A stretch of DNA of 64,000 bases, from assembly GCF_964355755.1 (NCBI RefSeq), contig NC_092679.1, positions 14,119,432-14,183,431 on the forward strand, read 5' to 3'. The notes under the pieces are model-generated. The model did no database searches and was not told the DNA's origin. It was given only the letters and a program-made list of their open reading frames with translations. The position numbers and the translations under genes were made by a program. Position 1 is the stretch's first letter. Each line of letters opens with the position of its first letter. Below are positions 315 to 49,867 of this stretch, in pieces. Origin of the DNA: Antedon mediterranea (lineage: Eukaryota; Animalia; Echinodermata).

Positions 315-1037
315 TGTGTAGCATTATTTTCATTGTATAATTGTTTAGTCTAATCTACTTAGTGTATACATCAATGTGTATCTATACCCTTTCTACCATA
401 ATCATGAAAGAATACAAATCTTTATTTCAGTCTTTTGCAAATTGTTATTGGAGAGGATGATGAATGTATCTACTGCAGTTTATTAGAGGCAGAGCTGACA
501 GTTGCGCAAAGACGGCTCTGGGTGGAACAACCGGCCAACTACCAGAGAGAGGTCATAATGCAGCGAGTTGAATTATCTATATACAAAAAAGTTACTCAAC
601 AAACACATGAGATTGACCATCGAGAATGTAGTTTATCTTGTGTATAACATTTTATTTTCAAATCATTTCATATTAATTCAGACGTTTAAAAAGTATGCAA
701 TTATGTGTCTTGAAAATTTATTTTGATCACGTGGTTCCCATGCAGGTTTCCTTTCATTCGAATCATCAAACGGTCGCTTTCACCCACTGTCATCATGCGA
801 AGTTAGACTATGGTTAATTAGGAATTGGGATACACTCTCACATTAATACATTTAGTTTATTCTGTGACAGTACTCAGTTCGCTGCCATGATCATTGGAAC
901 GAAACATGGCTCTGGGTTTTACCACGTTCTCGGAGTACATACATCTTGAGAGTACAGTAACTTTAAATAAATTAAATTTAAATCATTAAAACAGTCTCTG
1001 ATACTATGAATTCCTATACCACTGTTGTATGGTTTGT

Positions 1038-1832
1038 CTATTGCCTAGGTCCTTTGTAATTTCGACGTAAACTGCTGCTCTGATTTTGAGGTCGTGTCAG
1101 GTCTGGTGGTCTTGGTGCTACTTTTGAGGGTTTTGACATTTTTCCTGTGGCATTTATTGATGGTAATGTCAAATGGGTATCTTCGTCACTGGGAAGACAA
1201 GTTTCAATCAGCCGTGGTGGGCTCAGTTGTGGCCTGTTCGTTAGTCGCCCATTTGGTGGTTGCTTCCTCGCAGCTTTCTTGTCTGTTGCTGTCTGACGAC
1301 CAATGCTATTCGTGGATCGTCTTCCAATAGCAGCATTATCAAGCGATGGCCTACTTCCTGATTGGATGGTTGGAAATAAGTTAGTAGTACATCCGACGCT
1401 TCCATCTGAAAGTTTTTGTCTTGTCTCAGAAGTGTAGTGGTTGCCCATCTTTTGACAGCTTGCAGTCGTTGAGCTAGAGTTGCCTCTATGGAGTCTTTTA
1501 AATAAAGGACTAGATTTACCAGCAAGATCAACCATATCCAGAAGACTTCTTTCGTGCTGCTTCTTTCTTTGAGGCTTTCTTGTGTCCTTGATTGAGTCTG
1601 CAAAGTGAAATATAAGTTACACTTTTAATTAGGTCTTGTTTAATTTCAATCCATTTAAAGCATGGTAGACTGGTTTGACTCCATCTCCTATCCCATCAGT
1701 GGTAGCCTATGTGGTTCTTAATTGGGAGACATGTGTTTTACCTTCATGGTTAGAGAATCCTATTTTCGATGACATCAAGTCAGACCCAGAAGCGACATCT
1801 GAAGAATGCACATCAAAGATCTGAAAATCCAT
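1038..1832 (-). CDS. Putative orphan, basic, disordered protein (~216 aa), copy 1
   Basis: ATG at 1832; exon 1742-1832 (MDFQIFDVHSS...NHE); GT donor; polypyrimidine-CAG acceptor; exon 1038-1597 joins in frame. Possible 5' non-coding exon with GTAAGT donor near 2112. No recognised domain. Confidence 0.45.
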
Positions 1833-2375
1833 GTTTGATCTATATCTACGATCGTCAGATAATCTATATAAGACATGGATTTATAAACAATAATGTTGTT
1901 CTAAATGATTTCGGTACAAATAACTAAATACGGTTATGTATGTAGGCCTATATATTGAATTGGCGTGTGGTGTGTAGGTGTGTGTAGCCTACCTAGGCTA
2001 AAAAAACATTGATACAAAAAATCGTTCAAAAAATGTTTCAAAACACAAATCTTTTATCTATTTATTAAACATGCGATTGAAATTTCATTTAGACTATAAT
2101 TTAGTAACTTACCGTTTGTTTTTTCGTGAAGCCATTAGTAAATTATGCTGAAATATTTTCGGAGAAATTGTAAGACAGTGTGGGTAGTAAGCTTGTTTGC
2201 TTTTAGACGTTTGTATGCTGTAGTTACTATACTAACGCGATACGTATACGTGGCAACAATCACGCGCTGCGCCCGTTACCATGGCTTGAAGTTAGAGCAT
2301 GCGCATTAATGCACTGTAATCTGCAGCTGTGATGTGTGGCAAACAAGTATGACATGAACTTACATTGTTATAAAT

Positions 2376-3890: not shown

Positions 3891-6800
3891 ATGGCTACCA
3901 CTATTATTTGCCTAGCACTGATATGTTTATGCGTTGTGGATGATTATGCGGTTCGAGCCCAATACTTATCATCATATGTTGTCCATCCTAACTCATCTAG
4001 TCGCAGCAGAGATTGTTGGTATGAATCACCACTACAATTTCGATCTAGGCCAAGATTGTTACGGCGTACCAAGCATGGCCATTACTCTGCACCGTATAGG
4101 AGGTATGATAATTCCACTTCTTCATTTCAAACATCTTACGGGAAATTCTACTTTAACAATCTATACTTATGTGGAGATATTGAAGAAAACCCTGGACCAC
4201 AAAATGCGCAACATGTTGGAGACGAAGGTATGCGACCCGATGGTTACGTAACCAACTATGCACTTCAAGGTGGCGTTAATTGTTTAAATATCAACGCTCA
4301 CAGCATTGTAAACAAGTCATTGTGTTTACAATCAGTGCTTGTAACCGAAACAATTGACATCGTTTTCATGACTGAATCATGGCTAGATGGTCATATAAAT
4401 TCCACTGAAATATTCCCCAGTGAAAGGATCGCAATCGTCATGGAGGTGGTGTTGTTGTTGCGGTACATGAGGATTTGCGTGCGACACCATGTCTTAATTA
4501 TTCCTGTCCTGGAATCGAGCTAATATGGTGTACAATTGAAAGCAAACACGGGAACATTTTAGCAGGGACACTGTACAGACCTCCGGGTAGCAGAGTGGAT
4601 TTCTTCGAAAAACTCCAGGAATGTGTCGATCAAGTGTTAGTGGACGCCCATTTGTACAGTTTAATAATTATTGCAGGTGACCTTAACATTAACTTTAAAT
4701 CTACTGGTACAATTTCAACGGAACAACGAAATATGCAAAACACAGTAGACGTCTTAAATCTAAGGCAATGTGTTAATTTTTACACGCATTACAATAAGAA
4801 TTCGGCTAATACAATTATCGATCATGTTTACTCTAGTAGTACTGACATGGTAGCTGAAATTCAACCTCACACAGGTGTCGACAGTGATCATGAAGGAGTT
4901 TCCTTCAAACTTCGTATCTCAAAGGAGAACATTTCAAGACCAGCGGGTACTTTTTATGATTATTCTAAAATTTGTCCCCAACGTTTTATTGACAAATTCG
5001 CAAATATTAACTGGAACTGTGATTCCACTGACGTGAATGAGTTATGGTTAAACTTTAAATGTAAATTTATTGCAGCTATTAATGATGTTGTACCCCTAAG
5101 GTCGGCCAAAAGGCGCCCTAAAAAACCTTGGATCTCAAGGGAGATTCTTAGTTTAATTAGAAAAAAGAATAGATTTTATAAAGCAGCTATTAGGTCTGTA
5201 AATAAGGACAAGTGGGATAGATACAAACGTAGTCGTAATGACTTGAAATCTAAAATTAAAAAATCATATAAAAGTTATCTAAAGAACCTTTCCTTAAAAA
5301 ACGACCATTGTAAACAGTTCTGGTCCTTCGTTAGAAGCTCCAGAGCTAAACCCGGCACTGATACCTTTGTCATTGAGGGTAATCGTGTCAACAACCCAAA
5401 GATCATAGCTGAGGCCTTCAATAAAAGATTCTCAGCTAATTTTTCTCATGACTACCCTGACCACCTTTTAAATAATTCTTGTATTTTGCATGCTGGCTGC
5501 CCCAAATTCACTGATATCCAAACCACTAGTGCTGAGATATTATCTGTTATTAACAAACTGAAAACAGGTAAATCTCCTGGACCTGATGGAATAACCACAA
5601 CTATGATTAAAGTTGCTGCTATTTACATAACTGAACCATTATGTAAAATATTTAATCTATCTCTCAGCTCTGGTGTGTTTCCCATTGAAATGAAGGCAGC
5701 CAACATCATTCCAATCCATAAGTACAGTCAGGTGACTATAGTGATGTTTCTAATTATAGACCGATTTCCTTATGTTCTACAATTGGTAAATTGCTTGAGA
5801 GAGTTGTTGGTCAAAAGTTACTATCTTTTCTTGAAGAAAATACACTTCTCTCCGAGAAACAACATGGCTTCTTGAGGGGTAGGTCTTGTACAACCTTACT
5901 TACAGATGTTACAACTGATTGGTCTAAAATACTTAATGAGCGTTCTCCGCCCCATATCGATGCGATTTTTCTCGATTGGCGGAAAGCTTTTGATAAAATT
6001 AGCCATAAGATTCTGTTAAGTAAATTACATAATTTTGGTATCTGTGATTCAATGCTGGACTGGTTTAAATCCTACCTATCCTGTAGATCTCAAAGAGTTA
6101 CATTTAGGGGCTCCACTTCCGAGAATATATTGGTAAAATCCGGGGTTCCTCGGGGATCAGTGATTGGGCCAATCCTCTTTAATCTCTTTGTATCCGATCT
6201 CCCCTCCTGCATTGAATCACAGATACAACAATATGCTGATGATACTCTCATATACAGAGCCATCAGAAACAAAAACAAAGATAAAGATAACCATAATGAT
6301 AATGATGAAATGATCTTGCAGTCGGATCTTCATGCTATTAACAACTGGTGTGTGACGAACAAAATGCTACTAATACTGACAAATGTTTTGTAATGCACAT
6401 AACTAGATCTAACAGTCGCCTTGAACAAGCATGTGATTATTTTATTGGAGATGATAGATTGCCCGTTACGAATTCCATTAAATATCTTGGAATTCACCTG
6501 AATCGCAAACTCACTTGGGCTGATCATGTCCAATATGTTAAATCCAAATCTAATCGCATGTTTGGTTTTGTGAGACGTATTGTCAAATGTCGTGATAAAG
6601 CTATTATATTGCGACTATATATATCGTTAGTTAGACCATATATTGATTACGGTTTACCTGCCTGGATCCCCTTTCTTTAAAAAGACATCGCTGCTCTTGA
6701 AGCTGTCCAAAGGAGGGTCACCCGCACATGCTTCCCAAGATCAGCCAGTCTCCCTTACCCTGAACGTTTGAAACGCCTTAATCTGATGTCCATTAACAAT

Positions 6801-7076
6801 CGCATTAGGTATTTATGTATTAATTTTGTTACCAAATGTATGTACAAATTATATGATGTTAATGTTTTTAAATATTTATCTTTTAATTGCAGACATGTTA
6901 ATAACCTTAAGTTGCGCAATAATTTTATAGCCCGGACTGATTTATTTCATAACTCTGTCTTTAATTTTTTTGTTAGACATTTTAGAGATCTGCCTGCGGA
7001 TCTCTGCGACCAACTTTTAATTAATATAAACTGTTTTAAGCATAGCCTGAAGAAATATTTTAACAATCTGTTTTAA
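3891..7076 (+). pseudogene. Disrupted LINE polyprotein: hydrophobic leader - 2A - AP endonuclease - reverse transcriptase
   Basis: ATG at 3891; frameshifts near 4420, 5725 and 6370 and an in-frame TAA at 6678-6680 split it into the ORF-track pieces. Confidence 0.9.
4176..4199 (+). other. 2A (StopGo) ribosome-skipping motif
   Basis: GAT ATT GAA GAA AAC CCT GGA CCA = DIEENPGP, preceded by LYLCG. Exact match to D(V/I)ExNPGP. Confidence 0.9.
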
Positions 7077-7792
7077 TCTGAACATATGTATATTTTAAAG
7101 ATATTTTCTTAATTCTATCTTTTTAAATTAACAATTTTTTATAAAAACACATTGCTGAATTTTATAGTTTTATCTAAATTTTAATAGAATCCATGTATTA
7201 TTCATTTTAGGTTATCCGGCCTCATTGACTTACTTTTGTATTGTTTTTTTGTACTTTTCTGTATATTGGCGAAATAAATGATATGATATGATATGATATG
7301 ATAACTACTAGAGAGGTCATAATGCAGCGAGTTGAATTATCTATATACAAAAAAGTTACTCAACAAACACAAGAGATTGACCATTGAGAATGTAGTTTAT
7401 CTTGTGTATAACCTTTTATTTTCAAATAATTTCATATTAATTCAGACGTTTAAAAAGTATGCAATTATGTGTCTTGAAAATTTATTTTGATCACGTGGTG
7501 CCCATGCAGGTTTCCTTTCATTCGTATCATCAAACGGTCGCTTTCATGCACTGTCATCATGCGAAGTTAGACTATGGTTAATTAGGAATTGAGATACACT
7601 CTCATATGGATACATTTAGTTTATTCTGTGACAGTACTCAGTTCGCTGCCATGATCATTAGAACGAAACATGGCTCTGGGTTTTACCACGTTCTCGTAGT
7701 ACATACATCTTGAGAGTACAGTAACTTTAAATAAATTAAATTTAAATCATTAAAACAGTCTCTGATTCCTATATTACTGTTGTATGGCTTGT

Positions 7793-8538
7793 CTATTGCC
7801 TAGGTCCTTTGTAATTTCGACGTAAACTGCTGCTCTGATTTTGAGGTCGTGTCAGGTCTGGTGGTCTTGGTGCTACTTTTGAGTGTTTTGCCATTTTTCC
7901 TGTGGCATTTATTGATGGTAATGTCAAATGGGTATCTTCGTCACTGGGAAGACAAGTTTCAATCAGCCGTGGTGGGCTCAGTTGTGGCCTGTTCGTTAGT
8001 CGCCCATTTGGTGGTTGCTTCCTCGCAGCTTTCTTTTCTGTTGCTGTCTGACGACCAATGCTATTCGAGGATCGTCTTCCAATAGCAGCATTATCAAGCG
8101 ATGGCCTACTTCCTGATTGGATGGTTGGAAATAAGTTAGTAGTACGTCCGACGCTTCCATCTGAAAGTTTTTGTCTTGTGTCAGAAGTGTAGTGGTTGCC
8201 CATCTTTTGACAGCTTGCAGTCGTTGAGCTAGAGTTGCCTCTATGGAGTCTTTTAAATAGAGGACTAGATTTACCAGCAAGATCAACCATATCCAGAAGA
8301 CTTCTTTCGTGCTGCTTCTTTCTTTGAGGCTTTCTTGTGTCCTTGATTGAGTCTGCAAAGTGAAATATAAGTTGCACTTTTAATTAGGTCTTCTTTAATT
8401 TCAATCCATTTAAACTAAAGCATGGTAGGCCTAGACATGTGTTTTACCTTCGTGGCGGGAGAATCCTATTTTAGATGACATCAAGTCAGACCCAGAAGCG
8501 ATATCTGAAGGATGCACATCAAAGATCTGAAAATCCAT
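7793..8538 (-). CDS. Putative orphan protein (~216 aa), copy 2
   Basis: Exons 8448-8538 and 7793-8352; same exon lengths, splice sites and open frame as copy 1. Confidence 0.45.
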
Positions 8539-10377
8539 GTTTGATCTATATCTACGATCGTCAGATAATCTATATAAGACATGGATTTATAAAACAATGA
8601 TATGATAAATTATTTCTGTAAAAATAACTAATACGGTTATGTATGTAGGCCTATAATATACTGGCATGTGGTGTACCTAGCTATAAGTATAAAACATTGA
8701 TACAAAACATCGTTTAAAAAATCTTTCAAAACACATTCTATTGTCTATCTTTAAATGCGATTGAAAATTCATTCAGAATATAATTTAGTAACTTACCGTT
8801 TGATTTTTCGTGAATCCATTACGAATTTTGCTGATATAATTTCGGAGAAACTGTAAGACAGTGCAAGTTTGTTTGCTTTAGGAGTTTGTATGCTGTGGTT
8901 ACTATACTAACGCGATACGTATACAATGACAACAATCGCGCACTGCGCGCGTTACCATGGCTAGATGTTGGAGCATGCGCATTAATGCACTGTAAACTGC
9001 TGTGTGGAAAAACGACATGAAATTACCGTACAAAAAAAATTGTTGATTATTTCAAATTTACATATAATAGGCGTGGTCAGCTTTAGCCTACCTTTACAGT
9101 AACAAACACCGAAGCAGAAGAAAACAACAAAAATGAGTAGCATTATTTTCATTTTATAATCATTCTTTTATTTTAATAATAGATCAGGCACACAGCAGGC
9201 TACTTAGTGTATACAGTAGTGTGTATTTATACCCTTTTACCATAATCATTAAAGCATACAAATCTAAATTTCAGTATTTTTAATGATCTCTTTGAGAGAC
9301 AAATTTTGTAAATTATTATCTGAGGATGGTGTAAATGCATCTACTGCAGTTTAGCATAGAAGGCTCCTGGCATTTAACTGCTGCCCAAAGACTGTTCTGG
9401 GAGCGGAACCATACTACTGGAAAGGTTATAATGCAGTGAGTAAATTTCCTGTACAAACACAAGAGGTTCATCTTTACAGCACCGCAGTAGACTCATTTCA
9501 CATGTTAAATAAATTGAATACAGTATCCAGTAACTCAACAGGCCAATACATCAATAACTCACAGAGCCATTTAACAATTTCACAGCAAAATCAACATAAC
9601 TTCACACATATGATTTTGATTGAATTGAATAATCAATTAAATAATTTTTACTTTACTAAATGGTTATATTTACAACAAAGGAATTGTTTATTGCATTTCA
9701 ATGGAATACCTAAGAATGAAATGAGGTACTGGTATATGTCATTAGAAAACTAGCTTATTACGGAAATATGTAAATTAGTGTTTTTAGAACAACAAAAGAA
9801 AACGTTGAATTGAAAAGTAAAAGTTGACATAATGTATTATAACATTTTGTGAGCTTAAAAATGGAAATACCTTTACCAAAAACATTTAGTTAAACGTCAA
9901 ACATTTTAAGAGTGAATGAACAAATTCTAATATGAAATTGTACATAAACTGGTGGATTTAACATAGAAGAAATAAATGCCAATTCCTGTTGTTTACTTTA
10001 ATCTACAATCAACAAATAATGAAAATATAATCTATGGATCAATAATATATTTGAATAAATGATTTATTTAATATGGTGCACATTAGACATTATAACACAT
10101 TTTGCTTCAAGTAAACTATAAATAGATTTTATGTTTCAAACAACAGCTGCAATCCTATAGAATGTAATGAATATTTACCAATGCTTTACATATCAGTGTT
10201 GTGATAGCTTCTGCAACTACCCCAATGTTTTTATAGTTATGAAAGCCTTCACAACAGCTATTTATTTGTAAGAATGGAGTAAAGTTTATTATGCTTGTTG
10301 ATGTTCCAAAGTTTACAAAGTAAAAGTGTATAATTATGTCTAATTTGCACCATTCCTTACAATGGATGATTGAGTGG

Positions 10378-10407
10378 TTATAACTTGGCTTGCTGAGGTC
10401 CAAATTG
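10378..10407 (-). other. Predicted stop-codon readthrough extension of MDH1 ending in PTS1 (AKL)
   Basis: Minus strand after the last sense codon: TGA CAA TTT GGA CCT CAG CAA GCC AAG TTA TAA = X-QFGPQQAKL-stop. Confidence 0.75.
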
Positions 10408-13400
10408 TCAAGCGCTGCTTAGAAACTTAATGGCCATGTCTTTCTCCTCCAAAAGCTCCTTTGCGGTTATGTCCATTTTTTCCTGGGCAAAGTCACTAAT
10501 GCTCAGGCCGTCTACAACACTCCAGCTTTTGTCAGCTCCAATTTTAACAGGCATACTATACACAATGTCTTTTGGGATACCATACTTTGTTCCATCGGAG
10601 AGAACACCCATCGACACCCATTCATTCTGAGAAAATGCAAAGTTAACAAAGATGTACAAAAATTAGTCAAGCGGTAAATCAACAATATTAATGGTCTTAT
10701 TTTTATACAAATGTACATACAGAATCATTTTTTTTAAATTTATATTTTACACATAATAATGGGCAAATTTTAGTTTTACAATTGCATATAAATATAAAGC
10801 TAAGCTTATGAAATGCTGGTCAGTGGCGTAATGGCTATGAGCGCTCACTGGCTAAAGGGGCCCCAGAGCATGAGCCGTCCAATGCAACTACCCAGCGTCA
10901 GAGGGCCCCTTAAGCTTGGTTCCCACTAGAACGTAACGCAAGGACGTAAACGCAACACAAGCGTTTTAACCAATGACAAGCGAAGTTATAGACAGTTAGC
11001 AATCACAAGCGAATAAGCCGTCGCTTGTGATTGGTCAATTCACTTGCGTTGCGTTACGTCCTTGTGTTGCGTCGCTAGTGGGAACCACGCTTAAGAAGTG
11101 CTAAACCAGGGGCTATTTCCTATTGCGCTATGCAACTGACATTGGCTATCCTGTTTTTGCATTTATGCTTTTATATACAGCTTTGGCTTCCAATACTGTC
11201 CTAATAGTACCAACTATTAAATTTGTATCTTCCATTAACAGAGCTCCAAACAAAATATATATTACTATCTGATTTTTTTTTCAAATAAAATGATCAGAAA
11301 AAAACAAATATTTTATCATTGATAGATTTATATCATATAATATCATTATTCATTACACTTGCACTGATGAAGGGCTAGTGTTGCCCGAAAGCTTCTGGCT
11401 TTATCGTTTAGATTTAGCTTTTCACGTTTTTTTGTATCTCCATTGAGATCCAGCCACTGATACCCACAGCATTTTCATTTTTTCAGTAATTTGACTTTGG
11501 ATTTATATAATATCATTATATAATATATACCTCTTTGGTTCCAAACCACCAATCCCTCATGTGATCACCAATAGCCTTTGCAGCTGACATGGCACTGGAC
11601 AGCTTACGGGCCTTGATCACTGCACTTCCACGTGTTTGTACCGTCTGGAAAAAAAAAATAGAAAGTTACCAATAAATGATTGTATGTATCATTACCCTAT
11701 TCAGTGTTCAAATTTGATTTTAATTGGTGGTAAACAGAATTATGTCCATTCTCTACCATTCACAACTTCACTTAGCCACGTAATGTTTTATAGTTTTACG
11801 CTGTTTATCTAAATAGTCATTGGTGTATTTAAAAAACTGCAGAATTTGTCTTTATATTCTTCAAACTTTCAATAGCTGTTCTACTAAAAAAATTGCATTA
11901 TTTTTAAAAAGTATATTTCGAAGTTGTCTTTAATTGGAGAGAAAATTTTAAGGAAAATTCTCAGTTGGATCCACCAAAACCGTGGTATTTGATCTCTAAG
12001 TAGAGAGAGTATTTAATTGGAGGTAGCAACTATGGGAAAAGATAGGTGATCATCCAAGGTCGTGGTACAGCGGTCTTTAAATGGAGGGAGTCTTAATTGG
12101 AGGGGTCTTTAATTGGAGGGCAAGCCTTCATTTCATGTCATAGCATTAGTATAGGCTTTGTAGGTAAACTAACGCTACTGACCTTGACAAATTCTCCAGT
12201 TAACCAAGCATCATCCTTGACAGCATCATACACTGATGTAACTGACCCATCTGCTCCAACTACATTGCCATGGGCAGCATCTGGGAACTGTGTTGAGGAG
12301 TGGTTGCCCCAGATTATTAGATTACGAACAGATTCACATGGTCTTCCTAGACGTGATGCAACCTATTTTTGCAAAAAGAGGTTATTATCTAGATCCCACT
12401 TTTTCGTCTTTGTTTTCATGATGTGCCACAAGACTACGTAGCCATTTCAGGTTAGCAATCATTCTACATTTTACTCATGTAAGGGGCGTGTGGCACTGTG
12501 TGTTGGACCAAGGAAGGGGTCGATTGGATGCTGGACTAGTGATCGTGAGATCATGAATTCGAATCTAAAGCTAGTCGCATTGCTTGTATCTTTAGGCAAG
12601 AAACTTTACTTACGTTTGCATGTGTGTGTAAATGGGTACCTGGTAAAGGTCAACACAACCGCGCTGATTACTGGCTGCAACATTATAGGAGTATGTTTCC
12701 AGATGTTTTTGATCAAAAAACATTACTGGGGTAATAATGTGAAGCACTTAGAGGCTTTGTGCATTAAGCTCTATATAAGATTGACGTATTATATTATTAT
12801 TTCTGAGAATATATAACACAACATCACTCTTACTTGTGGATGGAAAAAAATGATTACCTGTGCCTGAGCTCTATTTAAATCCAATCTGGTTAGGCATGTG
12901 AAGTTAGCAGCAGGAATAGATGGAGCAGATCGCAATGTCAACACACAGTTGGTATTAGCTGGGTTTCCAACAACCAGTACCTATTACAAAGGGGATAAAA
13001 CATGTTTTAGAGAACAGAATAAACACTGACATAAGACACAGGTTTATGCAAAAATAAAAGAAATTCAAAATCAAATATTTCGATATTTTGTCATGTTTAA
13101 TGATGAGTTGGCATCTTCAACTGATTCTCTGTACTGTAACTATCAAATATGGCATTCTGTATATAATCCTTTACGTTAAGCCATTAATATATGACAAACT
13201 CATTTCATCTGAAAAGCCGAAGAACTTCAGCAAATGCTCTACAACTAGCAACCACTAACATCTAGTAATTGCCAGAGGAAGATTTGTTGACAACAAGTCG
13301 AAACGTTGAACAAGTATGTATTTATTAATGGTTTAACGTAAAGAATTATATACAGATAGTTAATATAAGACCAAATGAAAACTATTTTCGAAAATACAGT

Positions 13401-16400
13401 ATGGTATTCTTTGTCCAGTATCAGACTTATTCTATAATACAGCATCATACTGTATGACTGTATGTGCATAAAATGCGAGTTCTCTAGTAGTATGTCAGGG
13501 CTCGATTTATCTTTTTCATGTTGCTAGCCCACTGGGCTAGTTCACTGTAGATTTCACTAGCCCATACATTATTTTACTAGCCCACTCTTATTATCGCACC
13601 GTGATAGCAGGGCCGCCATATAAATGAATTCAGGCATTTTGTACAATAGAGGGCGCACTAATCTAAACGCTCGAGAATTGCTCCACATTTACATACAAAC
13701 TGTATTAAACTATTATTGCATGAAAAATTACACAAAATTGTATTTCTTTATTGTTCACATCCCGGTTCACATTATAAAAATGAACTTTGCGTTGCGACGC
13801 ATAGTTTATTTCATGCTCAACATATTCACAGAATCAATTTATTTTGGTCTTTTTGTTGTTGGGCTTCAACCTAGCCAAGAAAACTAATTAGATTCTGTCT
13901 ACCTTAGTTTAGGCTAGAGGCCTAGAGCCTATTATTATAGTAGGGTAGCTAGGATAGACCTACCTACTACTACTAGGCCTAGATCGCATTGGAGCACCTG
14001 GCAGGCCTAGGCCTAGGTAGGTAGTATCTAGGCCTAGCTGCTGCTGAGCAGCCATCACGATGCCAAACGATGGCTTTTGATTCTATCTAGGCCTCCTACG
14101 CATATTATAAAATATGGCCTCCATGGCCTATTTCTTACAGGGATAGAGCCAGCCACCCGGCCCTGCGTACAAAATATCCCTAGCTTTGATCTGTGACAAC
14201 CAGGCCTGATGACAAGACTAGACAAGTTATTTTTAACATTGGCAAAATTCTACTACATTTGGCCAATCACAGTTCGTTATTTATGGTCATCTTTTTGTGA
14301 CATGTTTGACCTGATAATGAAGCTCCGCCTACTTCACAATAACCTGGGTGACAAAAACATAAATGGCCAATCATAATTCGGGAAATTTGTTTGATTATGA
14401 GAGGCTCCGCCTACATCATCACTTGTTATGGCCACAGCAGCAGCGCGCGAGTGGTTTTTTTTGCTGATGTTGCCAAGACATGTCTTTTATGCTGGAGTTA
14501 TTTTTATGAGGTCATTTCGTCCCAATTTCGAGTTCCCACAACCTACTAGCCATCCGGGCTTAAAGGAAGATACTTTAGGTAGCCCGGAGCTGTTTTTACT
14601 AGCCATTGTACGCCGGGCTAGCACTAAATCGAGCCCTGTATGTATCATTGAATTATTTTAAGATAGATATGTGACATTGTTTCTAGAATACAGACATCAT
14701 GTGTGACACTGTAACAAAACGATATTGGACAAATTGCAAAGTATTTCAAATGTTAACTTACCTTGACTGTCTTCTTTGCGAAATCATTCAGTGCCTTGCC
14801 TTGGCCTTCAAAGATTTTAGCGTTTGCTTTCAGTAGATCTTTGCGCTCCATACCCTCCTTCCGAGGCATGGCGCCCACCATGATGACGGCATCACAGGCC
14901 TTGAATGCCTCATTAGGATCAGCAGTTGCAACAGTCTCTATTTAAATAATAAAATAAACTTTTTATTGCACTGTCACCTAAAACTTTAAAGAACCTAGTA
15001 CATCTTTATACGAGTAGGGGTTTACCAGCTCACACAGTCACTGTTGTGGACAAACTCAATGGTGGCAGCTGTTGACATGACCCTTAGGGAAGAAAAATTT
15101 TGTTGAAACTTCTACGTCCACAGATGTGGATATAGCTCTATATAAATTATCATTATCATCATCAATTCTCTAGTTACATCAATTTAGTGTCATGAAGAGT
15201 AACGCCCGTATTCTTAAACCGGACTTTAGTCGTAGTTCGAGCTAAAACTAAAAAAATGACGTCATTTTAATTCATAAACCAAACTTCAACTAAATCGCTG
15301 ACTTAATCAGGCCAACCTCGACTAAATCTTGACGGATTTTGATCGATTTTTTTAGTCCTGGAGGGGGCAGGCTAAATGGTCAACTAAATGGTTTTTAAAC
15401 GATGTTTATAAAAAACGTAACAGTCATTGAGTTGTTATATTGGCCAGATATTGAAGGATGAAATATCTATATTTATATTAGCTTAATTAAATATACATTG
15501 GTATAAGTTATAATAATGAAAATCATCTTTATTTACAACTGTATACAAATTACATTATTTTCTTCGCGCAAGTCCGACTTGAACCGACGTCACGCCATAG
15601 CAACAATGGGAGATGCGGCAATTCACTACGCGATGGAATGTTTAGGGGGCCTAGCGCTTTCTTGTCACGCTATGAAGTGCGTGGTTCGTCGCGATCATAC
15701 TTTGTTGGAGGCCTAGGAAATATGAAAGTTACCGTACCTCCATGGTTTCTAAATATATTTTGATTTTGTTTGTTGTTAATCAAAAGTACTTCACTGTTAA
15801 ATTAATACTGATCTTGTTCTAATAATTAACGAATAAAATTATTTTTCATGTATATAGTCCTGATGCGTAAAAGGTTTTGTAAGAAAATGGAAAGTGATAT
15901 CAATGCGCAAAATTTTGTCTGCTCCTCAAATACTCTCTTGTCATTGGTTAATGTTTAGCCTTTGTTACCCAGACGTGTGGAACTCGACTAAAAGCTCGAC
16001 TTCATTAAGTCGAACTGCAAACTTCGACTACTTCGTTTTTTAATCGAATTTGAAGTAATAGCTCGAACTACGACTTTTTCAAGTCGAACTTCGAACTACG
16101 ACTAAAGTCCGGTTTAAGAATACGGGCGTAAGTCTAATCATATACAGCACTTTTTATATCGCCAAACACTGGAGTTTTGCTTGGTGATGTGAAATTGGTC
16201 CATAAGTTTACAATAATGTAGAAATAATCATACTCTTAACAAGTGGAAGGGCACAGTCCTGTAATTCCATCACAACTCCATCTAATACAGACATCATTGG
16301 AGGTATATCAAGGAGAACCAGCTCAACTTCCTAAACAGAAATATAAACAAATATACATAAGTTTTAGTGATGAAAAAGTTGTATCATATTCAGAGATGAG

Positions 16401-17345
16401 CACATGAGTTCCAACTTGAAATATCAGACTTTATAAATAAAGCATATAAATGCACTATAATTCCTTTTAAATATATCCAAACACAGCATCTATTGTAAAC
16501 AATGGTATACCATGGTCTTTCAAAGCAAGGTAAATACTCATGTGCTTTGGCAAAATGTGTGATGTTTTGCCTTAATAAAAAAGGTGGGCCTAGTATTATA
16601 ATAGAGCCTAAATTATAATGTATGCACTATTTTGATGTTTCTTTATATCCACAACAATCAGGAGAAACGTGCACACATTTAGAGGGAGATGGTGGATCAC
16701 TCGAAATAACTCTGTAACAATGCAATGGCACAAAATCATACAGCATAATTTAAATGAAATTATAAATGAAAATATTTGAGTATAATTTATAAATTTATCT
16801 TTACCTGATTAATACCAAACACATCTCCTTTGGCAATAGAATACAAGAGAGAGTAGGCAATCTGCCCTGCAGCACCAGTTACGACGACACGAAGGGCCTG
16901 AAATAAATATTTAAAAACATTATTATTATTAATATTATTATTATTATTTTATTATCATCATACTTGAAAGATCTGCTGGTTGGTTGCAAGAATTGTGGAT
17001 GACAAGAAACTGTGTAGGTTTATATAACTTCAGTTCAGGGCCTGTCTGTGTAATTCAATTGTGAAGTTATTTTTGTTCATGTCATATGAATGATAACTAT
17101 AAAAAGTCCATAAAGGCCTAGCCATATTTCTTTTTATTCAGCAGTGCCTAGCCATTGCTGTGAATGAATACAACTACTAGTGACAGCTACATCCATACAC
17201 ATTGAATTCGCACCACCACCACCGCCGCCGGTGGTGGTAAAGTTTATAAATGTAATCAGTTCATAAACATTACTATACTTTCGATTTATATTATATATAT
17301 AATCTCTGCAAATTCAAGATTTTATACATTTATCAATCTTACCAT
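10408..17345 (-). CDS. MDH1: Cytosolic malate dehydrogenase (334 aa)
   Basis: Exons 17343-17345 (ATG only), 16805-16897, 16234-16330, 14762-14937, 12858-12980, 12183-12362, 11531-11644 and 10408-10626, all GT-AG and in frame. Motifs [54 protein letters not shown]; C-terminus FLSSA. Confidence 0.98.
10913..11091. mobile_element. Palindromic PIF/Harbinger-type MITE nested in an older degenerate MITE (~10821-11138)
   Basis: TIR AGCTTGGTTCCCACTAG / CTAGTGGGAACCACGCT with TWA flanks; relatives at 26874-26988 and about 45120-45189. Confidence 0.75.
11350..11504 (+). mobile_element. Penelope-like element remnant with minimal hammerhead ribozyme core
   Basis: CTGATGA-A-GGGC-tagtgtt-GCCC-GAAA-GCTTC at 11364-11395; 15-bp direct repeat ATATAATATCATTAT at 11335-11349 and 11505-11519; related inverted fragment at about 55382-55430. 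Confidence 0.65.
12484..12801 (+). mobile_element. tRNA-derived SINE
   Basis: A/B box-like head (TGGCAC..., ATTCGAATC), conserved core GGCAAG..CTTTAC..GTAAATGGGTACC and (TAT)n tail; relatives at 44851 and 55643. Confidence 0.75.
13496..14638. mobile_element. Non-autonomous hAT-like DNA transposon with 5-bp TSD
   Basis: TIR CAGGGCTCGATTTA / TAAATCGAGCCCTG, subterminal CTAGCCC repeats, TATGT on both flanks. Confidence 0.8.
15203..16128. mobile_element. Non-autonomous PIF/Harbinger element
   Basis: ~38-bp perfect TIR CGCCCGTATTCTTAAACCGGACTTTAGTCGTAGTTCGA; TAA TSD (15200-15202, 16129-16131). Confidence 0.85.
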
Positions 17346-23600: not shown

Positions 23601-26600
23601 AATGCGTTATATGAAATCTTTTATTTTGTACTTGAAAAATCATAAAACTAGTCAGGAAGCAACCATTTTTTAAAATTACGAAATAAATAGGCCCCTGGTC
23701 ACATTTAGCTGGTAGGCATCTATCTAGGCTAGTTCGCCGTGGCGCAGCTATAATCCATCGCTGTTTATAGTCTGTAGATGGATCGAGTATAGAGTCGCCG
23801 ATTACCTCACTCTGGGCATGCGCAATCGCGTGCCGGATTCCCCAACGCTGGGCAGTTGAGTTCCGGTGCCGGAATCCTAACCACGGCGTATTTATAAATG
23901 CTATTAATAAATATTATAATAATAATACTGTTATGCGCGATTTGAACGATTTGCGCAATTTGAAATTGCGCAAAAAAAATCCTTGCGCAATTTGAATTGA
24001 AACATGTGTTTCAAATTGCGCAAGCAACGTATTAAATTGCGCAAGTAATCTGCAAATTGCGCAAGGTTTTTCGACAGATTGTGAAATCATGCAAACCCAT
24101 ATTTTTATAGTAATTTCTAAGAATGATTCAAAATTTCCTTATTTTAGTAGTGCAAATATTGTTATAAGTTAGCATACCGTCGAAGAACCGACGAAGGAAA
24201 ACGAAGCGGTGGTGTTCCACCAGGCGGGCGCGGCGCGGGCGGCCGGCTATACTACTCTAGCCTAGCTAGGGTCTGGACTACTGATACTGACTAGGTTACA
24301 TGGCCTAGCTTAAACTAATATTAAAAACTTAAAAAGTGAGTATTAAACATTATCTTCATTGAAATGGTCTTATTTATATAATAAAATACTAAATTTTAAA
24401 CTCCTCTGCCTAGGCCTAGCCTAGCCATGTATGGGAAAATTTACAGTTCGTTTTCAAATTGCGCAAAGGTGTCATATTGCGCAAGAACTATCTTGCGCAA
24501 TTTACAAATTGTGCAGCGCAATTTAAAATTGCGCAAAGATTTTCTTGCGCAATTTGAAATTGCGCAAGTTGATTGCGCAATTTGAAATTGCGCAAAAAAA
24601 TCCTTGCGCAATTTTAAATTGCGCAAGAATTTTTTGCGCAATTTCAAATTGCGCAAGGATTTTTTTGCGCAATTTCAAATTGCGCAAATCGTTCAAATCG
24701 CGCATAACAATACTGTAGGCTAGGCCTAGCTAGTTTACTTTGTTGCAATAAATGGATTTGATTTGATTTTATATAAATATAAACTAGGCCTAGGCCTAGC
24801 CTTTAGTTAGTTACTATGTCGGTCGGTTGGTAAACACCAACTTGAGCACGCGACTGCAGCCATGTATATATATGGCCTTGTTTTTCAGAAATGTAATTTC
24901 AACAAAATTGTTCATATCGCACGTAAATATATTTAACTTATAAAGCCTGTAGAGTAGTAGGTATGCTTGGCTTAGTCTTTATAAATAATATGCTGTGCAT
25001 AGTGGTTTGGTTTTGGCATGGAACTCAACTTCACATCGGTTTCTGACCGACGCTAATGCTAAGGCGAAAACCTAAAAAAAACATCCCTCTTCTCTAGGCA
25101 ATGGTGGGTGAAAACAAAACCACTAGACCTCTAGCTCCAGTACCACAGCACAAACCAGTCGAAAAAATATGTGTTAAACTTTGTTCATGAGAATGTGCAT
25201 GCATGAGCAATTTTAAATTGACCAATCAATTGCGTTAATTCTGCCGGAATAATATACTTTATATAAATAATGTATTAATCTCTTGTTATACTTTGTAATT
25301 TCAGGATGGCTGGTTTGTTCGTGTGTCAAATGCATTTCATAGTGTTCCTTGTATGAGAACCTCTCTTCTGTATGGGATCGGTGGTGGTGTTGGCACTGGA
25401 ATTGCTTACTTCTTGTTCACAAGTAAATAATACGCCTTTGTTTACGAAACGGAAGACATCTTCTTCTTGTTTTGACACACAATTCTGTGCAGGGAAGTGT
25501 AACCTGCAGAAATAACATACAGTAGTGTGGCGAGTATATTTTCTGAGGAAAAGTTATTAAGGATTCGTAATTAAAAAGAAAGTAATTTAAAAATGGTTAA
25601 AATCCAACCGAGGGTTACACTCTGCACAGCATTGTTTGTCATCGATCGAAGATGTTTCGTGAAAAAGAAGTATAATGTTTTACAAAATTCATTGAATGAA
25701 TAGATAATTACTGCATTTATTTTTATTTAATGATGATCGCAGTGTATGTGTCCATTTTTAACATCTTAATTATTGTACATTCTATAATAACATTTATTTT
25801 CTTCTTACTGTTACAGGTCGAATAAAAAGAGCATGTGATTTTGGAATTCTTTCAATGTGTGTTGTCACATTGGGTACTTTGTAAGTTATACCAAAGAACT
25901 TATAACACAAGAATCTCCTGTTCGTCCGAAGCGTGTAACCATTTCGAAAGGCATTGTGGGATAGAATAGAGCTATGGGTGGCGCCATTGTGAGCCATGGA
26001 GTAGGGCGCCCGCATCAAATTAGAAAGTCAAAATCATAGAGGGGATCTGCTAATGCTCTAGGGGGAATAGAGTTATTGACTGAGGAGTAGGGCGCCTGCA
26101 TCAAATTAGAAAGTCAAAATCATAGAGGGGATCTGCTAATACTCTAGGGGGGGTAGAGTAATTGACTTCCTAGTTTGGAGGGGGCGCTGCTCCATGCTGT
26201 GAAATGGCGTCGCCCAGTTTGACCTTTTAACCCTGTACTTCCGATACTGTGTTTTGAATGCAAATTGAAGAACAGGAGATTCTTGTGTTATAAGTTCTTT
26301 GGTTATACTTTTACATGAGAAATGGCACTCTACACAACTAGATAGTGGGGCATTCAATTCATCATCTTATCCATTCCAAATTTCACTCCTGTCACTGTCA
26401 GACGTGTAATACTATAACATTTCCATTAAATGGTAATTTGATCCTACATCTTTTGCTTACTTGGGTTTTTTTCCAAGTTGCATAGTATAGTAAGCTTTTT
26501 AAATTACATTTTATTATTCTTTTCAGTGGCAAATGTAGATATTCTAGAGCACAGAAAAAGTTAGCAACCAGACAACTGCAAAGAGTTGATGCTGGGCCTC

Positions 26601-34398: not shown

Positions 34399-37300
34399 AT
34401 GGCACTTCAGTTCAAACTTCCTGGTATTAATGTACGGTACATAAGAGCTGATAACATGCTTTATAAGGTGATTATCACAATGACGTGTGAGGTACCGTGT
34501 GACCATGAAGTGTTTCACAATGAAGTAGAAGATTTGCTGCGGGCAGTTATTGCAATGGCAAACTTGTACCCCATCAAAAGTGATCATCTGTTAGCTGTGC
34601 CGTGTAAGTATAGTATCCGATCATTATAAAGCTTATTGCTAAGAATTCTTGCCTGAAAGGGAAAGATGTGAGAATTTTAGCCTTTTTTTACAGTATATTT
34701 CTTTTTTTCCTAAAATAGAAGGTAAAACTTTACTTAGTTATTATTTATTAACTATTCATATATTCCTAACAAAAACATCCTTTCTTTCCCTTACGAATGA
34801 GTATGAATTATATTCTCTCCGGTGCTAATTCTTTGATACAGTGTCACATGTGATGCCTGTATCATAACTTTTACAGCCTATACATCATGTGATTCATATG
34901 TGATGCTGTATTGCCAAATTTGCCTATGATATTGGGCACATAATGTGGAGATACTGTACAGAGAATCGTGTATGTTATATTGTATGTAAACTGTGTTATT
35001 ATTAATCTATATTTTCTCATTGCAGCAATAAAGCCATGGTCTCCAAAGAATAAAAATCTTACAAAGTTTTCCAAAAACAAGAACTTGTTATACTGCCATG
35101 ATTTTGTTTATAAAATTAGGTTGAGAAAACTGGTGCCTCTTGTCACTCACTTACCAACAAAAAGACAGGTATGTAAAAAGAATCTCTTACTAAATATTAT
35201 CAATATACAGGCAAATTAACTCTAACTTATAAAAGTCTGTTTTTAACTAAGCAAATTAATTTATTCACGCAATTAAAAAGCATCAGTTTAACACAAAGCA
35301 ATACAAAAAAAATGTGTAATCAGTCACAACTCGGTATATGCTCAATTTGCATGAATAGATTTCCCAGTAGGGGAAAACTTTAAACCCTTTTCACACAAAA
35401 ATGTTAATATTTAACTAACATCAAAAAGCAGGTAAAATTTTTAATATTCAATAGCACAATTTTGTTATAGTTTTATCAGTGAGTGTTAAATACTGTAGTA
35501 TGATTGACAAGTATGCGTCAGTCAATATATAAGTACATTTACACCCTCTATTGGCACTTAAATTAATTAATCCACTTACTTAATATAATACTGTACTGTA
35601 TCCGTGTTTAAGCTTTGGAATAATTGATTCATTCAAGTTTATGAGCTTGAGTAGATTTATATCTGATTGATCATCTAAAATAGAATATTCATTTTTAGAT
35701 GGAAATTTAAATAAAAATATTTGTTATTTTATATAATTCAACATTTGTTTTTGATAAATAATATTGTAGAATATATATGTTATGCGCGATTTGAACGATT
35801 TGCGCAATTTAAAATTGCGCAAAAAAATCCTTGCGCAATTTGAAATTGCGCAAAGAATTCTTGCGCAATTTAAAATTGCGCAAGGATTTTTTTGCGCAAT
35901 TTTAAATTGCGCAATCAACTTGCGCAATTTCAAATTGCGCAAGAAAATCTTTGCGCAATTTTAAATTGCGCTGCACAATTTGTAAATTGCGCAAGATAGT
36001 TCTTGCGCAATATGACACCTTTGCGCAATTTGAAAACGAACTGTAAATTTTCCCATACATGGCTAGGCCTAGGCAGAGGAGTTTAAAATTTAGTATTTTA
36101 TTATATAAATAAGACCATTTCAATGAAGATAATGTTTAATACTCACTTTTTAAGTTTTTAATATTAGTTTAATAAGCTAGGCCATGTAACCTAGTCAGTA
36201 TCAGTAGTCCAGACCCTAGCTAGGCTAGAGTAGTATAGCCGACCGCCCGCGCCGCGCCCGCCTGGTGGAACACCACCGCTTTCGTTTTCCTTCGTCGGTT
36301 CTTCGACGGTATGCTAACTTATAACAATATTTGCACTATTAAAATAAGGAAATGCGATATTTATCTTTAATTTTGAATCATTCTTAGAAATTACTATATA
36401 AATATGGGTGTGCATGATTTCACAATCTGTCGAAAAACCTTGCGCAATTTGCAGATTACTTGCGCAATTTAATACGTTGCTTGCGCAATTTGAAACACAT
36501 GTTTCAATTCAAATTGCGCAAGGATTTTTTTTGCGCAATTTCAAATTGCGCAAATCGTTCAAATCGCGCATAACATATACACATCAAAGTGTATGTAAAA
36601 ACCAAGATCATACTTTAAGGGATCATTTCTATAATGTGTTTCACGGAGAAATGAATAAAGTTGATCAAATCGCACACCCACGAGGATGAGTAAGTATTCT
36701 CTTCTGAGCGTGAAGCAGAGCTTGAGAATTCCATCTGGAATGACCTTGCTCATTGATGACTGTTCGACCAAGACTTTGGTCTTGGAAGGATGGAGAGAAT
36801 GCAATCTGAGTGGTTCCAAATATGTTTTTTTAATAAAACGGAAGAAATATTCAGAAACTGTTGACATACACAAAATAAAATTTTAAAATTATTATTATTT
36901 TTGTCTGGATAATGAACAAATGTGTATGTGTAGCATTGAATATATTAACAAGCCTTCAGTTGTACTGTAGGTTTCTAGTATATTATAAACTCATTTTACA
37001 CAGAAAATGTTACAACTTGCTTGATATCCTCACACATATTATCTACAAATATCAGATATAAAAATATTTCAATAGTTCACCTTTATTGTATTATTATTAT
37101 TATTTTTTTTTTTTGCTTATTTCCAAACATGTTCAACTGTAGTAAGATTGACAAGTTCAATAGTTAGTATGATTTAAGTCAAAATCTCAGTGAACTCATC
37201 CCCTCTATTGGCTCTGAAATTAATTATTCCACGAATTTTAATATCATTTGTTTAAATTATTGTTTAATTATTTTCAGTTCCTCCATGTTTCAATTTGAGT

Positions 37301-40300
37301 CAATCTGTATCTGGTAGGTCATCTAAAGTAGAAATTTCATTTTCAGATGGAAATTATTGCAAAGAAATGTTTAAATAAAAATATTTGTTATTTTGTACAA
37401 TTCAACATTTGTTTTTGATAAATAATATTGCAGAATATATACACATCAAAGTCTATGTAAAAACCAAGATCATACTTTAAGGGATCATTTCTATAGTTTG
37501 TTTCACGGAGAAACGAATAAAGTTGATCAAATCGCAAACCCACGAGGATGAGTGTAAGTATTCTCTTCTGAGCGTGAAGCAGAGCTTGAGAATTCCATCT
37601 GGAATGACCTTGCTCATTGATGACCGTTCCACCAAGATTTTGGTCTTGGAAGGATGGAGAGAATGCAATCTGAGTGGTTGCAAATATGTTTTTTAATAAA
37701 ATGGAAGAAATATTCAGAAACTGTTGACATACACAAAATAAAATTTTAAAATTATTATTATTTTTGTCTGGATAATGAACAAATGTGTATGTGTAGCATT
37801 GAATATATTAACAAGCCTTCAGTTGTACTGTAGGTTTCTAATATATTATAAACTCATTTTACACAGAAAATGTTACAACTTGCTTGATATCCTCACACAT
37901 ATTATCTACAAATATCAGATATTAAAAATTTCAATAGTCCACCTTTCTTATATTATTATTATTTTTTGTTGTTGCTTATTTCCAAACATGTTCAACTGTA
38001 ATAAGATTGACATGTTGAATAGTTAGTATGATTAATTAAGTCAATATCTCAGTGCACTCATCCCCTCTATTGGCTCTGAAATTACTTATTCCACTAATTT
38101 TAATATCATTTGTTTAAAGTATGGCTTAATTAATTCCAGTTCCTCCATGTATCAATTTGAATAAATTTGTATCTGGTAGGTCATCTAAAGTAGAATATTC
38201 TTGAAAATTATTTTATAACAATGTCTCAATAAAAAATATTTGTTATTTTGTACAATTCAACATTTGTTTTTGATAAATAATATTGCAGAATATATACACA
38301 TCAAAGTCTATGTAAAAACCAAGATCATACTTTAAGGGATCATTTCTATAGTTTGTTTCACGGAGAAACGAATAAAGTTGGTCAAATCGCTAACCCACGA
38401 GGACGAGTGTAAGTATTCTCTTCTGAGCGTGAAGCAGAGCTTGAGAATTCCATCTGGAATGACCTTGCTGATTGATGACCGTTCCACCAAGACTTTGGTC
38501 TTGGGAGGATGGAGAGAATGCAATCTGAGTGGTTGCAAATTTGTTTTTTAACAAAAGGAAAAAAATATTCAGAACTGTTTACAAACACACAAACAAATCA
38601 TTTTAAAATTATAATTTTTTTGCTATAATATAATGAATATATGTATAAACAGTCACATTGCATTGAATATATTTCCAAGCCTTTAGTTGTAGGGTTCTAA
38701 CAGATTGTAAACACAGTTCACACAGAAAATGGTACAACTTGCTTGATATTCTGAAACATATTATTATCTGCAAATATCAGATAAATAAATATTTCAAATT
38801 CAATAGTCCACCATTATTGTATTTTTAAAATATTTTTTTTTTATTTCCAAACATGTTCAACTGTAGTAAGACAAGTTGAATAGTTAGTATGATTAAGTCA
38901 ATATCTCAGTGCACTCATCCCCTCTATTGGCTGTGAAATTAATTATTCCACTAATTTTAATATCATTTATTCAAATTATGGTTTAATTATTTTCAGTTCC
39001 TCCATGTTTCAATTTGAGTAAATTTGTATCTGGTGGGTCATCTAAAGTAGAATTTTCACATGAAAATTATTGCATAACAATGTCTCAATAAAAATATTTG
39101 TTATTTTATATAATTCAACATTTGTTTTTGATAAATAATATTGCAGAATATATACACATCAAAGTCTATGTAAAAACCAAGATCATACTTTAAGGGATCA
39201 TGTCTATAGTTTGTTTCACAGAGAAACGAATAAAGTTGATCAAATCGCAAACCCACAAGGACGAGTGTAAGTATTCTCTTCTGAGTGTGAAGCAGAGCTT
39301 GAGAATTCCACCTGGAGTGACCTTGCTCATTGATGACCGTTCCACCATGACTTTGGTCTTGGAAGGATGGAGAGAATGCAATCTGAGTGGTTGCAAATAT
39401 GCTTTTTAATAAAACGGAAGAAATATTCAGAAACTGTTGGCATTCACAAAATCAATTTTAAAATTGTTATTATTTTTGTCTGGATAATGAACAAATGTGT
39501 ATGTGTAGCATTGAATATATTAACAAGCCTTCAGTTGTACTGTAGGTTTTTAATATATTATAAACTTATTTTACACAGAAAATGTTACAACTTGCTTGAT
39601 ATCCTCACACATATTATCTACAAATATCAGATATAAAAATATTTCAATAGTCCACCTTTTTTTATTATTAATATTATTTATTTTTTTTGTTGCTTATTTC
39701 CAAACATGTTCAACTGTAGTAATTTTGACAAGTTCAATAGTTAGTATGATTAAGTCCATATCTCAGTGCACTCATCCCCTCTATTGGCTCTGAAATTAAT
39801 GATTCCACGAATTTTAATATCATTTGTTTAAATTATTGTTTAATTATTTTCAGTTCCTCCATGTTTCAATTTGAGTCAATCTGTATCTGGTAGGTCATCT
39901 AAAGTAGAATATTCATTTACAGATGAAAATTATTTTATAACGATGTCTCAATAAAAATATTTGTTATTTTGTACAATTCAACATTTGTTTTTGATAAATA
40001 ATATTGTAGAATATATACACATCAAAGTCTATGTAAAAACCAAGATCATACTTTAAGGGATCATTTCTATAGTTTGTTTCACGGAGAAACGAATAAAGTT
40101 GATCAAATTGCAAACCCATGAGGATGAGTGTAAGTATTCTCTTCTGAGCGTGAAGCAGAGCTTGAGAATTCCATCTGGAATAACCTTGCTCATTGATGAC
40201 CGTTCCACCAAGACTTTGGTCTTGGAAGGATGGAGAGAATGCAATCTGAGTGGTTGCAAATATGCTGTTTTTTTATTAAGGGAAAGAAATAGTGCTGAAA

Positions 40301-45189: not shown

Positions 45190-49867
<4,678 letters not shown>

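What the first reader, a model, noticed from the sequence alone, without database searches (positions are those of the whole stretch)
10378..10410. Hidden peroxisomal MDH1 isoform: UGA-CAA-UUU readthrough exposing a C-terminal AKL
Seen: the MDH1 stop is TGA, followed in frame by CAA TTT GGA CCT CAG CAA GCC AAG TTA TAA, giving ...FLSSA-X-QFGPQQAKL-stop. Established: AKL is a canonical PTS1; UGA-C is the leakiest stop context; vertebrate MDH1 makes peroxisomal MDH1x by readthrough of UGA-CUAG; stop-CARYYA is the TMV-type readthrough signal. Inference: this invertebrate reaches the same dual targeting with a different extension (10 residues including X) and a different context (5 of 6 match to CARYYA, not CUAG). 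That would mean either deep ancestry with motif turnover or convergent evolution of a peroxisomal malate shuttle.
Basis: partly seen in the sequence, partly recalled or inferred. Interest (0 to 1): 0.9.

Follow-up and report, generated by a model that had tools for sequence, protein, structure and literature searches.

The report
Feather-star MDH1 hides peroxisome tag
A feather star's cytosolic malate dehydrogenase gene ends in a UGA stop followed in frame by nine codons that finish in a peroxisome address tag, so a small share of the enzyme is likely made longer and sent to peroxisomes, a trick already described for this enzyme across animals, here with a less usual stop context.

Summary
Observation confirmed. 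On the minus strand an 8-exon MDH1 (identical to the Antedon mediterranea protein) ends TGA-CAA-TTT...GCC-AAG-TTA-TAA, giving X-QFGPQQAKL. A spliced contig carries the tail. Chance is about 0.3-0.8% per stop. It is not new in kind: Stiebler 2014 already reports the cryptic MDH1 PTS1 as animal-wide, back to Hydra (Fig. 4C not visible to me), and this scan noted an arthropod case on other DNA. New support: of 21 database MDH fragments read with W at the homologous stop, 15 end in a PTS1, including two sea-cucumber-like tails (X-L...SKL) and one sea-urchin-like tail (X-Q...SRL). Deep ancestry with tail turnover fits better than convergence. The sea-urchin-like Q implies UGA-CAR, so the non-CU context may be shared within echinoderms. 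Hemichordates instead end directly in ANL/SNL. Against efficient readthrough: human UGA-CAA-U gave 0.10% in HeLa, all six CARYYA positions matter, no 3' structure was found, and local polymorphism shows no measurable constraint. The TMV-motif reading is not supported. Readthrough and import are inferred, not measured. Verdict: new member of a known kind.

The parts
17343..17345 (-). MDH1 exon 1, coding part (ATG only)
   Evidence: joint 16897|17343
16805..16897 (-). MDH1 exon 2
16234..16330 (-). MDH1 exon 3
14762..14937 (-). MDH1 exon 4
12858..12980 (-). MDH1 exon 5
12183..12362 (-). MDH1 exon 6
11531..11644 (-). MDH1 exon 7
   Evidence: joint 10626|11531
10411..10626 (-). MDH1 exon 8, coding part, ending ...KFLSSA
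10408..10410 (-). TGA stop of the cytosolic enzyme, followed by CAA TTT; lies at the position where vertebrate and other echinoderm MDH1 proteins end
   Evidence: unchanged in the contigs of X9, X5, X10, X11 and X1
10381..10407 (-). In-frame tail QFGPQQAKL, predicted to be translated on readthrough; codon 3 is Gly in the window and Arg in runs X9 and X11
10381..10389 (-). AKL, a canonical type 1 peroxisomal targeting tripeptide
   Evidence: sequence; matches the PTS1 pattern printed in Stiebler 2014 methods; called canonical in PMC8919083
10378..10380 (-). Second stop, TAA
9600..10377 (-). 3' UTR, at least this long in X9's spliced contig; AATAAA hexamers start at 10290 and 10266

Best explanation
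The feather-star MDH1 gene carries a nine-codon in-frame tail ending in AKL behind its UGA stop, and ribosomes likely read through that stop now and then, which would give a minor C-terminally extended enzyme predicted to be imported into peroxisomes. SHOWN: gene, splicing, stop, tail, and the same stop + tail + PTS1 layout in orthologous fragments (the W at their stop position is inferred to be TGA). INFERRED: a near-cognate tRNA decodes UGA (Trp or Arg in human MDH1x, Hofhuis 2016 abstract); C at +4 makes the stop leaky, probably at a lower rate than UGA-CUA-G; the PTS1 receptor PEX5 (recalled) binds AKL; the imported MDH reoxidises peroxisomal NADH as part of a malate/oxaloacetate shuttle. 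It is best read as the crinoid member of the ancient animal MDH1x arrangement, in which tail length and sequence turn over while UGA, +4 C and a terminal PTS1 persist.
For: Tail is in spliced RNA-type contigs. Chance of a PTS1 tail is 0.3-0.8% per stop, and MDH1 is a gene for which this was expected beforehand. Of 21 fragments with W at the homologous stop, 15 end in a PTS1 at the next W or the end; all 15 begin with L, Q, H or P (C-compatible codons), and 0 of 4 beginning with V, S, S or G have one. Three fall among echinoderms: P0323 and P0328 with Holothuria (SH-aLRT 100), P0318 with Lytechinus (98) inside sea urchins (99). P0328 is 100% identical to P0051, which ends just before the W. A jellyfish-like spliced locus L002 shows the DNA: TGA CTG, tail LPGKL. 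0 of 12 named echinoderm MDH1 proteins end in a PTS1 themselves, while 3 of 3 hemichordate ones end in ANL, ANL or SNL. TGA-CAA ranks 9 of 192 under Schueren's LINfs3 weights. The one allele change seen in the tail (Gly to Arg) leaves the stop, the CAA and the AKL intact.
Against: No readthrough or localisation was measured. Human FBXL20, TGA CAA TGG, read through at only 0.10% in HeLa, the joint lowest value in that table, against 2.91% for MDH1, so the LINfs3 rank overstates this context. No stable structure 3' of the stop (z = 0.24). Constraint on the tail is not detectable in close relatives: 1 change in X9 and 0 in X5 against 1.3 and 1.5 expected from the UTR rate (P = 0.62, 0.23), the one change is non-synonymous, and the next 72 nt of UTR are as conserved. 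No other crinoid genus, starfish or brittle-star 3' end was available. The 21 rows are conditional on a TGA-type stop, are not independent (3 Acropora-like, 2 bird-like, 2 sea-cucumber-like), and came from a query that included the W-read tail. Five of 8 eukaryote-type metagenome loci (L003, L004, L005, L007, L008) have TAA or TAG stops and no PTS1, and C. elegans lacks it, so the trait is losable.
Confidence: 0.75

Rival explanations
1. Decaying relic: the tail is inherited from the ancestral MDH1x, but the change from UGA-CU to UGA-CA has cut readthrough to background, so little or no peroxisomal enzyme is made in crinoids.
For: UGA-CAA-U gave 0.10% in HeLa; +5 identity mattered in fungal and human reporters; no constraint detected on the tail.
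Against: A canonical AKL and an open frame persist; a sea-urchin-like orthologue also begins its tail with Q and ends in SRL; 3 of 15 PTS1 tails begin with Q, H or P, which cannot be CU codons.
Confidence: 0.13
2. TMV-type programmed readthrough: the CAAUUU hexamer works as a CARYYA signal and gives high readthrough, acquired independently of the vertebrate CUAG system.
For: 5 of 6 match; UGA-CARYYA gave about 15% in the OPRL1 context.
Against: All six positions appeared important in that study; the sea-urchin-like tail is CAR-ACN by translation; sea-cucumber-like tails begin with L, as vertebrate and cnidarian ones do, which points to a shared origin.
Confidence: 0.06
3. Chance: a random 3' UTR that happens to end its first open frame in AKL.
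For: About 1 stop in 130 to 350 does so, so a genome holds dozens; no local constraint seen.
Against: The gene is the one known for this in animals, and 15 of 21 orthologous tails end in a PTS1 against a 0.76% background.
Confidence: 0.04
4. The tail is exposed by another route (alternative splicing, a sense allele or editing at the stop, or an assembly error) rather than by readthrough.
For: Other enzymes use splicing to expose a PTS1.
Against: TGA is unchanged in the contigs of five runs that cover it; no joint within 10000-10760; contigs drop rare forms, so this is not exclusion.
Confidence: 0.02

Closest known systems
Vertebrate MDH1x (Stiebler 2014 PMC4207609; Schueren 2014 PMC4359377; Hofhuis 2016 PMC5133446)
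   Same: Same gene, stop at the homologous position (...FLSSA), UGA stop, C at +4, short in-frame tail ending in a PTS1.
   Different: Context UGA-CAA-U rather than UGA-CUA-G; 10 residues including X rather than 20 in the bird-like fragments; AKL rather than CRL/SRL; no alignable tail sequence; readthrough not measured.
Invertebrate cryptic MDH1 PTS1 reported for Hydra vulgaris and 'the animal kingdom' (Stiebler 2014, text to Fig. 4C)
   Same: Non-vertebrate animal with a predicted readthrough-derived PTS1 on MDH1.
   Different: I could not see Fig. 4C, so I cannot say whether an echinoderm or a non-CU context is shown there; Table S2 lists neither for MDH1.
MDH1 with a PTS1 in the normal reading frame (Drosophila SNL; hemichordate ANL/SNL and some insect SKL)
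   Same: Same predicted outcome: part of cytosolic MDH1 in peroxisomes.
   Different: No readthrough needed; the hemichordate and fly tripeptides are non-canonical.
Tobacco mosaic virus UAG-CARYYA readthrough
   Same: CAA directly after the stop; 5 of 6 positions match.
   Different: UGA stop, sixth position U instead of A, and no sign that the hexamer is conserved among echinoderm orthologues.

Membership tests
Cytosolic MDH1 (TIGR01758) | Full-length score above the curated cut-off | tested here: met
   493.4 vs 470.4 bits
MDH1x (readthrough-extended peroxisomal MDH1) | UGA stop at the homologous position | tested here: met
MDH1x (readthrough-extended peroxisomal MDH1) | In-frame tail in the mRNA, ending in a PTS1 tripeptide | tested here: met
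MDH1x (readthrough-extended peroxisomal MDH1) | Layout conserved in orthologues | tested here: met
   15 of 21 W-read fragments, 3 of them echinoderm-like; W = TGA inferred, DNA seen only for L002; no other crinoid genus
MDH1x (readthrough-extended peroxisomal MDH1) | Measured readthrough above background | not testable with these tools
   needs a reporter, ribosome profiling or mass spectrometry; a human UGA-CAA-U context gave 0.10%
MDH1x (readthrough-extended peroxisomal MDH1) | Tail directs import into peroxisomes | not testable with these tools
   no PTS1 predictor or imaging available; tripeptide is canonical
UGA-CU(A)(G) readthrough motif class | CU directly after UGA | tested here: not met
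   context is UGA-CAA-U
TMV-type CARYYA readthrough | Full CARYYA hexamer after the stop | tested here: not met
   CAAUUU, sixth position differs; all six important
Structure-stimulated readthrough | Stable RNA structure 3' of the stop | tested here: not met
   151 nt from the stop: -16.7 kcal/mol, z = 0.24; long-range pairing not tested

The most novel reading that the evidence does not exclude
Crinoids and some sea urchins run their peroxisomal MDH1 on a UGA-CAR stop context that is nearly silent in human cells but leaky in echinoderms. Across echinoderms and hemichordates the peroxisomal share of one enzyme would then be set by interchangeable designs: a canonical PTS1 behind a leaky stop (UGA-CU or UGA-CA), or a non-canonical PTS1 in the normal frame.
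Probability: 0.3. Interest if true: 0.5.

Novelty: new member of a known kind. Interest (0 to 1): 0.3.

Why it matters
It extends the predicted peroxisomal MDH1 isoform to echinoderms, for which my searches found no paper (Stiebler's Fig. 4C unseen). It also shows that screens limited to UGA-CU, such as Stiebler's, would miss it: 3 of 15 PTS1-bearing orthologous tails start with a codon that cannot be CU. It offers a natural series (CU, CA, direct PTS1) for testing how little readthrough is enough for a peroxisomal redox shuttle. It does not reveal a new mechanism.

Tried and rejected
No whole genome was held, so no genome-wide background of real stops; six-frame and Markov backgrounds were used instead. 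No listed run was on record as RNA (no RNA holder listed); X9 and X7 are treated as RNA-type only because their contigs are spliced. Scans of viral contigs found nothing; the prokaryote genome scan gave one bacterial MDH. Whole-protein searches gave no cluster representative with a read-through tail; such tails appeared only among short cluster members and the 50%-identity representatives. Cluster members of echinoderm proteins held no W-read form. The test for purifying selection on the tail lacked power. The tree misplaced two fragments (P0338, P0378) and was rebuilt without them; those two remain unplaced. P0400 (fish-like, two W before an SRL) was missed by the filter and is not in the 21. 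Paper searches: 0 papers; 1 unrelated; CAAUUU only inside a vector sequence; nothing on Antedon MDH among 10 listed; only Stiebler 2014; one search was flawed (whole-word 'peroxisom') and counts for nothing. No complex or structure prediction was run. Rejected: premature stop truncating a longer protein (the stop aligns with vertebrate and echinoderm ends); TMV-type signal; convergence as the leading account.

Full report
1. The observation. The finding lies on the minus strand. Window 10410-10378 reads TGA CAA TTT GGA CCT CAG CAA GCC AAG TTA TAA, that is stop-QFGPQQAKL-stop, in frame with a last exon ending KFLSSA. Eight exons with GT-AG introns join to a 334-residue protein with the same sequence as P0002, labelled Antedon mediterranea cytoplasmic malate dehydrogenase, XP_071962923.1. 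It passes the curated cut-off of the eukaryotic cytosolic MDH family. Contigs of runs X9 (organism A) and X7 (organism B) skip six of the seven predicted introns exactly; the seventh joint is not among the rows shown. X9's contig continues through stop and tail into the 3' UTR, and X1's contig matches 10192-10452 with no difference. One search showed no joint within 10000-10760.

2. More than chance? Among 8563 stop-to-stop segments of the window's six frames, 25 end in [SAC][KRH][LM], 65 match the broader pattern printed in Stiebler's methods, and 7 do so behind TGA-C. A Markov model of the gene's own UTR gives 0.25% for the strict pattern. Genome-wide that is unremarkable. For MDH1, where such a tail was expected beforehand, it is meaningful.

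3. Close relatives. In one search, X5 (organism B) has no change in 10306-10483; X9 and X11 carry Gly to Arg in tail codon 3 and Ala to Asp in the last sense codon. Stop, CAA and AKL are unchanged where covered. This does not show constraint: 1 and 0 changes against 1.3 and 1.5 expected (P = 0.62, 0.23), and the neighbouring UTR is as quiet (two rows of the difference table were not shown).

4. Distant orthologues. No tool held echinoderm genomes, but some database proteins run past the usual end with W where the stop should be, as if called with TGA read as Trp. This is an inference; it is backed where an identical or near-identical protein ends just before the W (P0328 vs P0051, P0244 vs Hydractinia, P0259 vs Acropora). 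From the 150 best hits (18 rows) and three cluster members, 21 rows have W near the homologous stop. 15 of 21 end in a PTS1 at the next W or the end; 6 do not (P0260, P0359, P0382, P0387, P0411, P0448). First residues after W are L 14, Q 1, H 1, P 1, V 1, S 2, G 1; all 15 PTS1 rows start with L, Q, H or P, and none of the four starting with V, S or G has a PTS1 (Fisher P = 0.0025; rows are not independent). A quick tree places P0323 (X-LFAGEGNVSKL) and P0328 (X-LIAGDGNVSKL) with Holothuria (SH-aLRT 100) and P0318 (X-QTARGMSTDETKSRL) with Lytechinus (98) inside sea urchins (99), on about 65 residues each. Q after the stop means CAA or CAG, the crinoid's kind of context. Limits: only TGA-type stops are visible this way, the query carried the W-read tail, and the DNA was not seen. 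With DNA: of 8 eukaryote-type metagenome loci, L002 (86% to Rhopilema) has TGA CTG and a tail LPGKL, L001 and L006 end directly in ANL and SNL, and five have TAA or TAG and no PTS1; none of the 9 GC-rich bacterial-type loci has one. 0 of 12 named echinoderm proteins end in a PTS1 themselves, whereas 3 of 3 hemichordate proteins end in ANL, ANL or SNL.

5. How leaky is UGA-CAA-UUU? Schueren 2014 (passages with Tables 1 and 2): C at +4 has the largest positive weight, and TGA-CAA ranks 9 of 192 under those weights, yet FBXL20 with TGA CAA TGG measured 0.10% in HeLa against 2.91% for MDH1; two TGA CAG contexts gave 0.25 and 0.27%. Loughran 2014 (passages and one section): UGA-CARYYA gave about 15% in the OPRL1 context, but all six positions appeared important; this site lacks the sixth. 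No structure follows the stop (z = 0.24). So a low rate is the fair expectation. Stiebler argues that about 1% is enough because peroxisomes are 1-2% of cell volume; whether 0.1-0.3% is enough is open.

6. Mechanism. Most ribosomes stop at UGA and release cytosolic MDH1. A small fraction likely insert an amino acid (Arg or Trp in human MDH1x, Hofhuis 2016 abstract passage), add QFGPQQAKL and stop at UAA. The exposed AKL would bind the PTS1 receptor (PEX5, recalled), and the imported enzyme would reoxidise NADH in a malate/oxaloacetate shuttle (as discussed for zebrafish in PMC8919083, passages). Gene, tail and orthologous layout are shown; readthrough, import and shuttle are inferred.

7. What is known. 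[quoted passage not shown] Its Fig. 4C is an image I could not see and may include an echinoderm. Table S2 also lists non-CU contexts for pyrophosphatase tails. Hofhuis 2016 (passages) covers vertebrates only. Bittner 2022 (passages) notes the patchy distribution of such tails. Jungreis 2016, Biziaev 2022 and a 2026 Viruses review (passages) and Smoljanow 2025 (abstract and outline) added nothing specific. Searches for an echinoderm case found none. The scan's own notes hold an arthropod MDH1 case with UGA-CUAG and GKL, which I did not test directly.

8. Verdict. A real, expressed, hidden PTS1 tail on crinoid MDH1 that most likely gives a minor peroxisomal isoform (0.75). It works like MDH1x and meets the sequence-level tests of that kind; it fails the UGA-CU and CARYYA motif tests; rate and import are untested. 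Deep ancestry with turnover of the tail fits better than convergence, though the tails cannot be aligned and independent gains are not formally excluded. The only fresh element is the UGA-CAR context, possibly shared with a sea urchin. Interest 0.3.

Noticed in passing
Its tail could not be read.
   Followed up: partly
P0048, P0092, P0115 (hemichordates); P0014-P0016 (insect-like); P0118, P0135 (sponge-like); L001, L006: MDH1 proteins ending directly in ANL, SNL, SKL or GKL, so direct and hidden PTS1 alternate across animals.
   Followed up: partly
P0338, P0378: Animal-like MDH fragments whose tails start with H or P (CAY, CCN) and end in ANL or PKL: further non-CU contexts; could not be placed on the tree.
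   Followed up: partly
window 4424-7073 (+): Frameshifted LINE-type retroelement: endonuclease (PF14529) and reverse transcriptase (PF00078); a second LINE-like piece at about 47656-48807 (-) had no Pfam hit.
   Followed up: partly
window 546-2363 and 7310-9026: A 1.8 kb local duplication at 89% identity holding overlapping minus-strand ORFs with no Pfam match.
   Followed up: no
window 36568-40291: About 4.3 head-to-tail copies of a roughly 860-bp unit at 89-94% identity, with a related inverted piece at 23929-24709.
   Followed up: no
window 10909-11095, 24459-24687, 35800-36028: Short palindromic, high-copy repeats that look like miniature inverted-repeat elements; the first lies in MDH1 intron 7.
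   Followed up: no
window 58756-59121 (+): An exon of an actin-family gene (PF00022).
   Followed up: no
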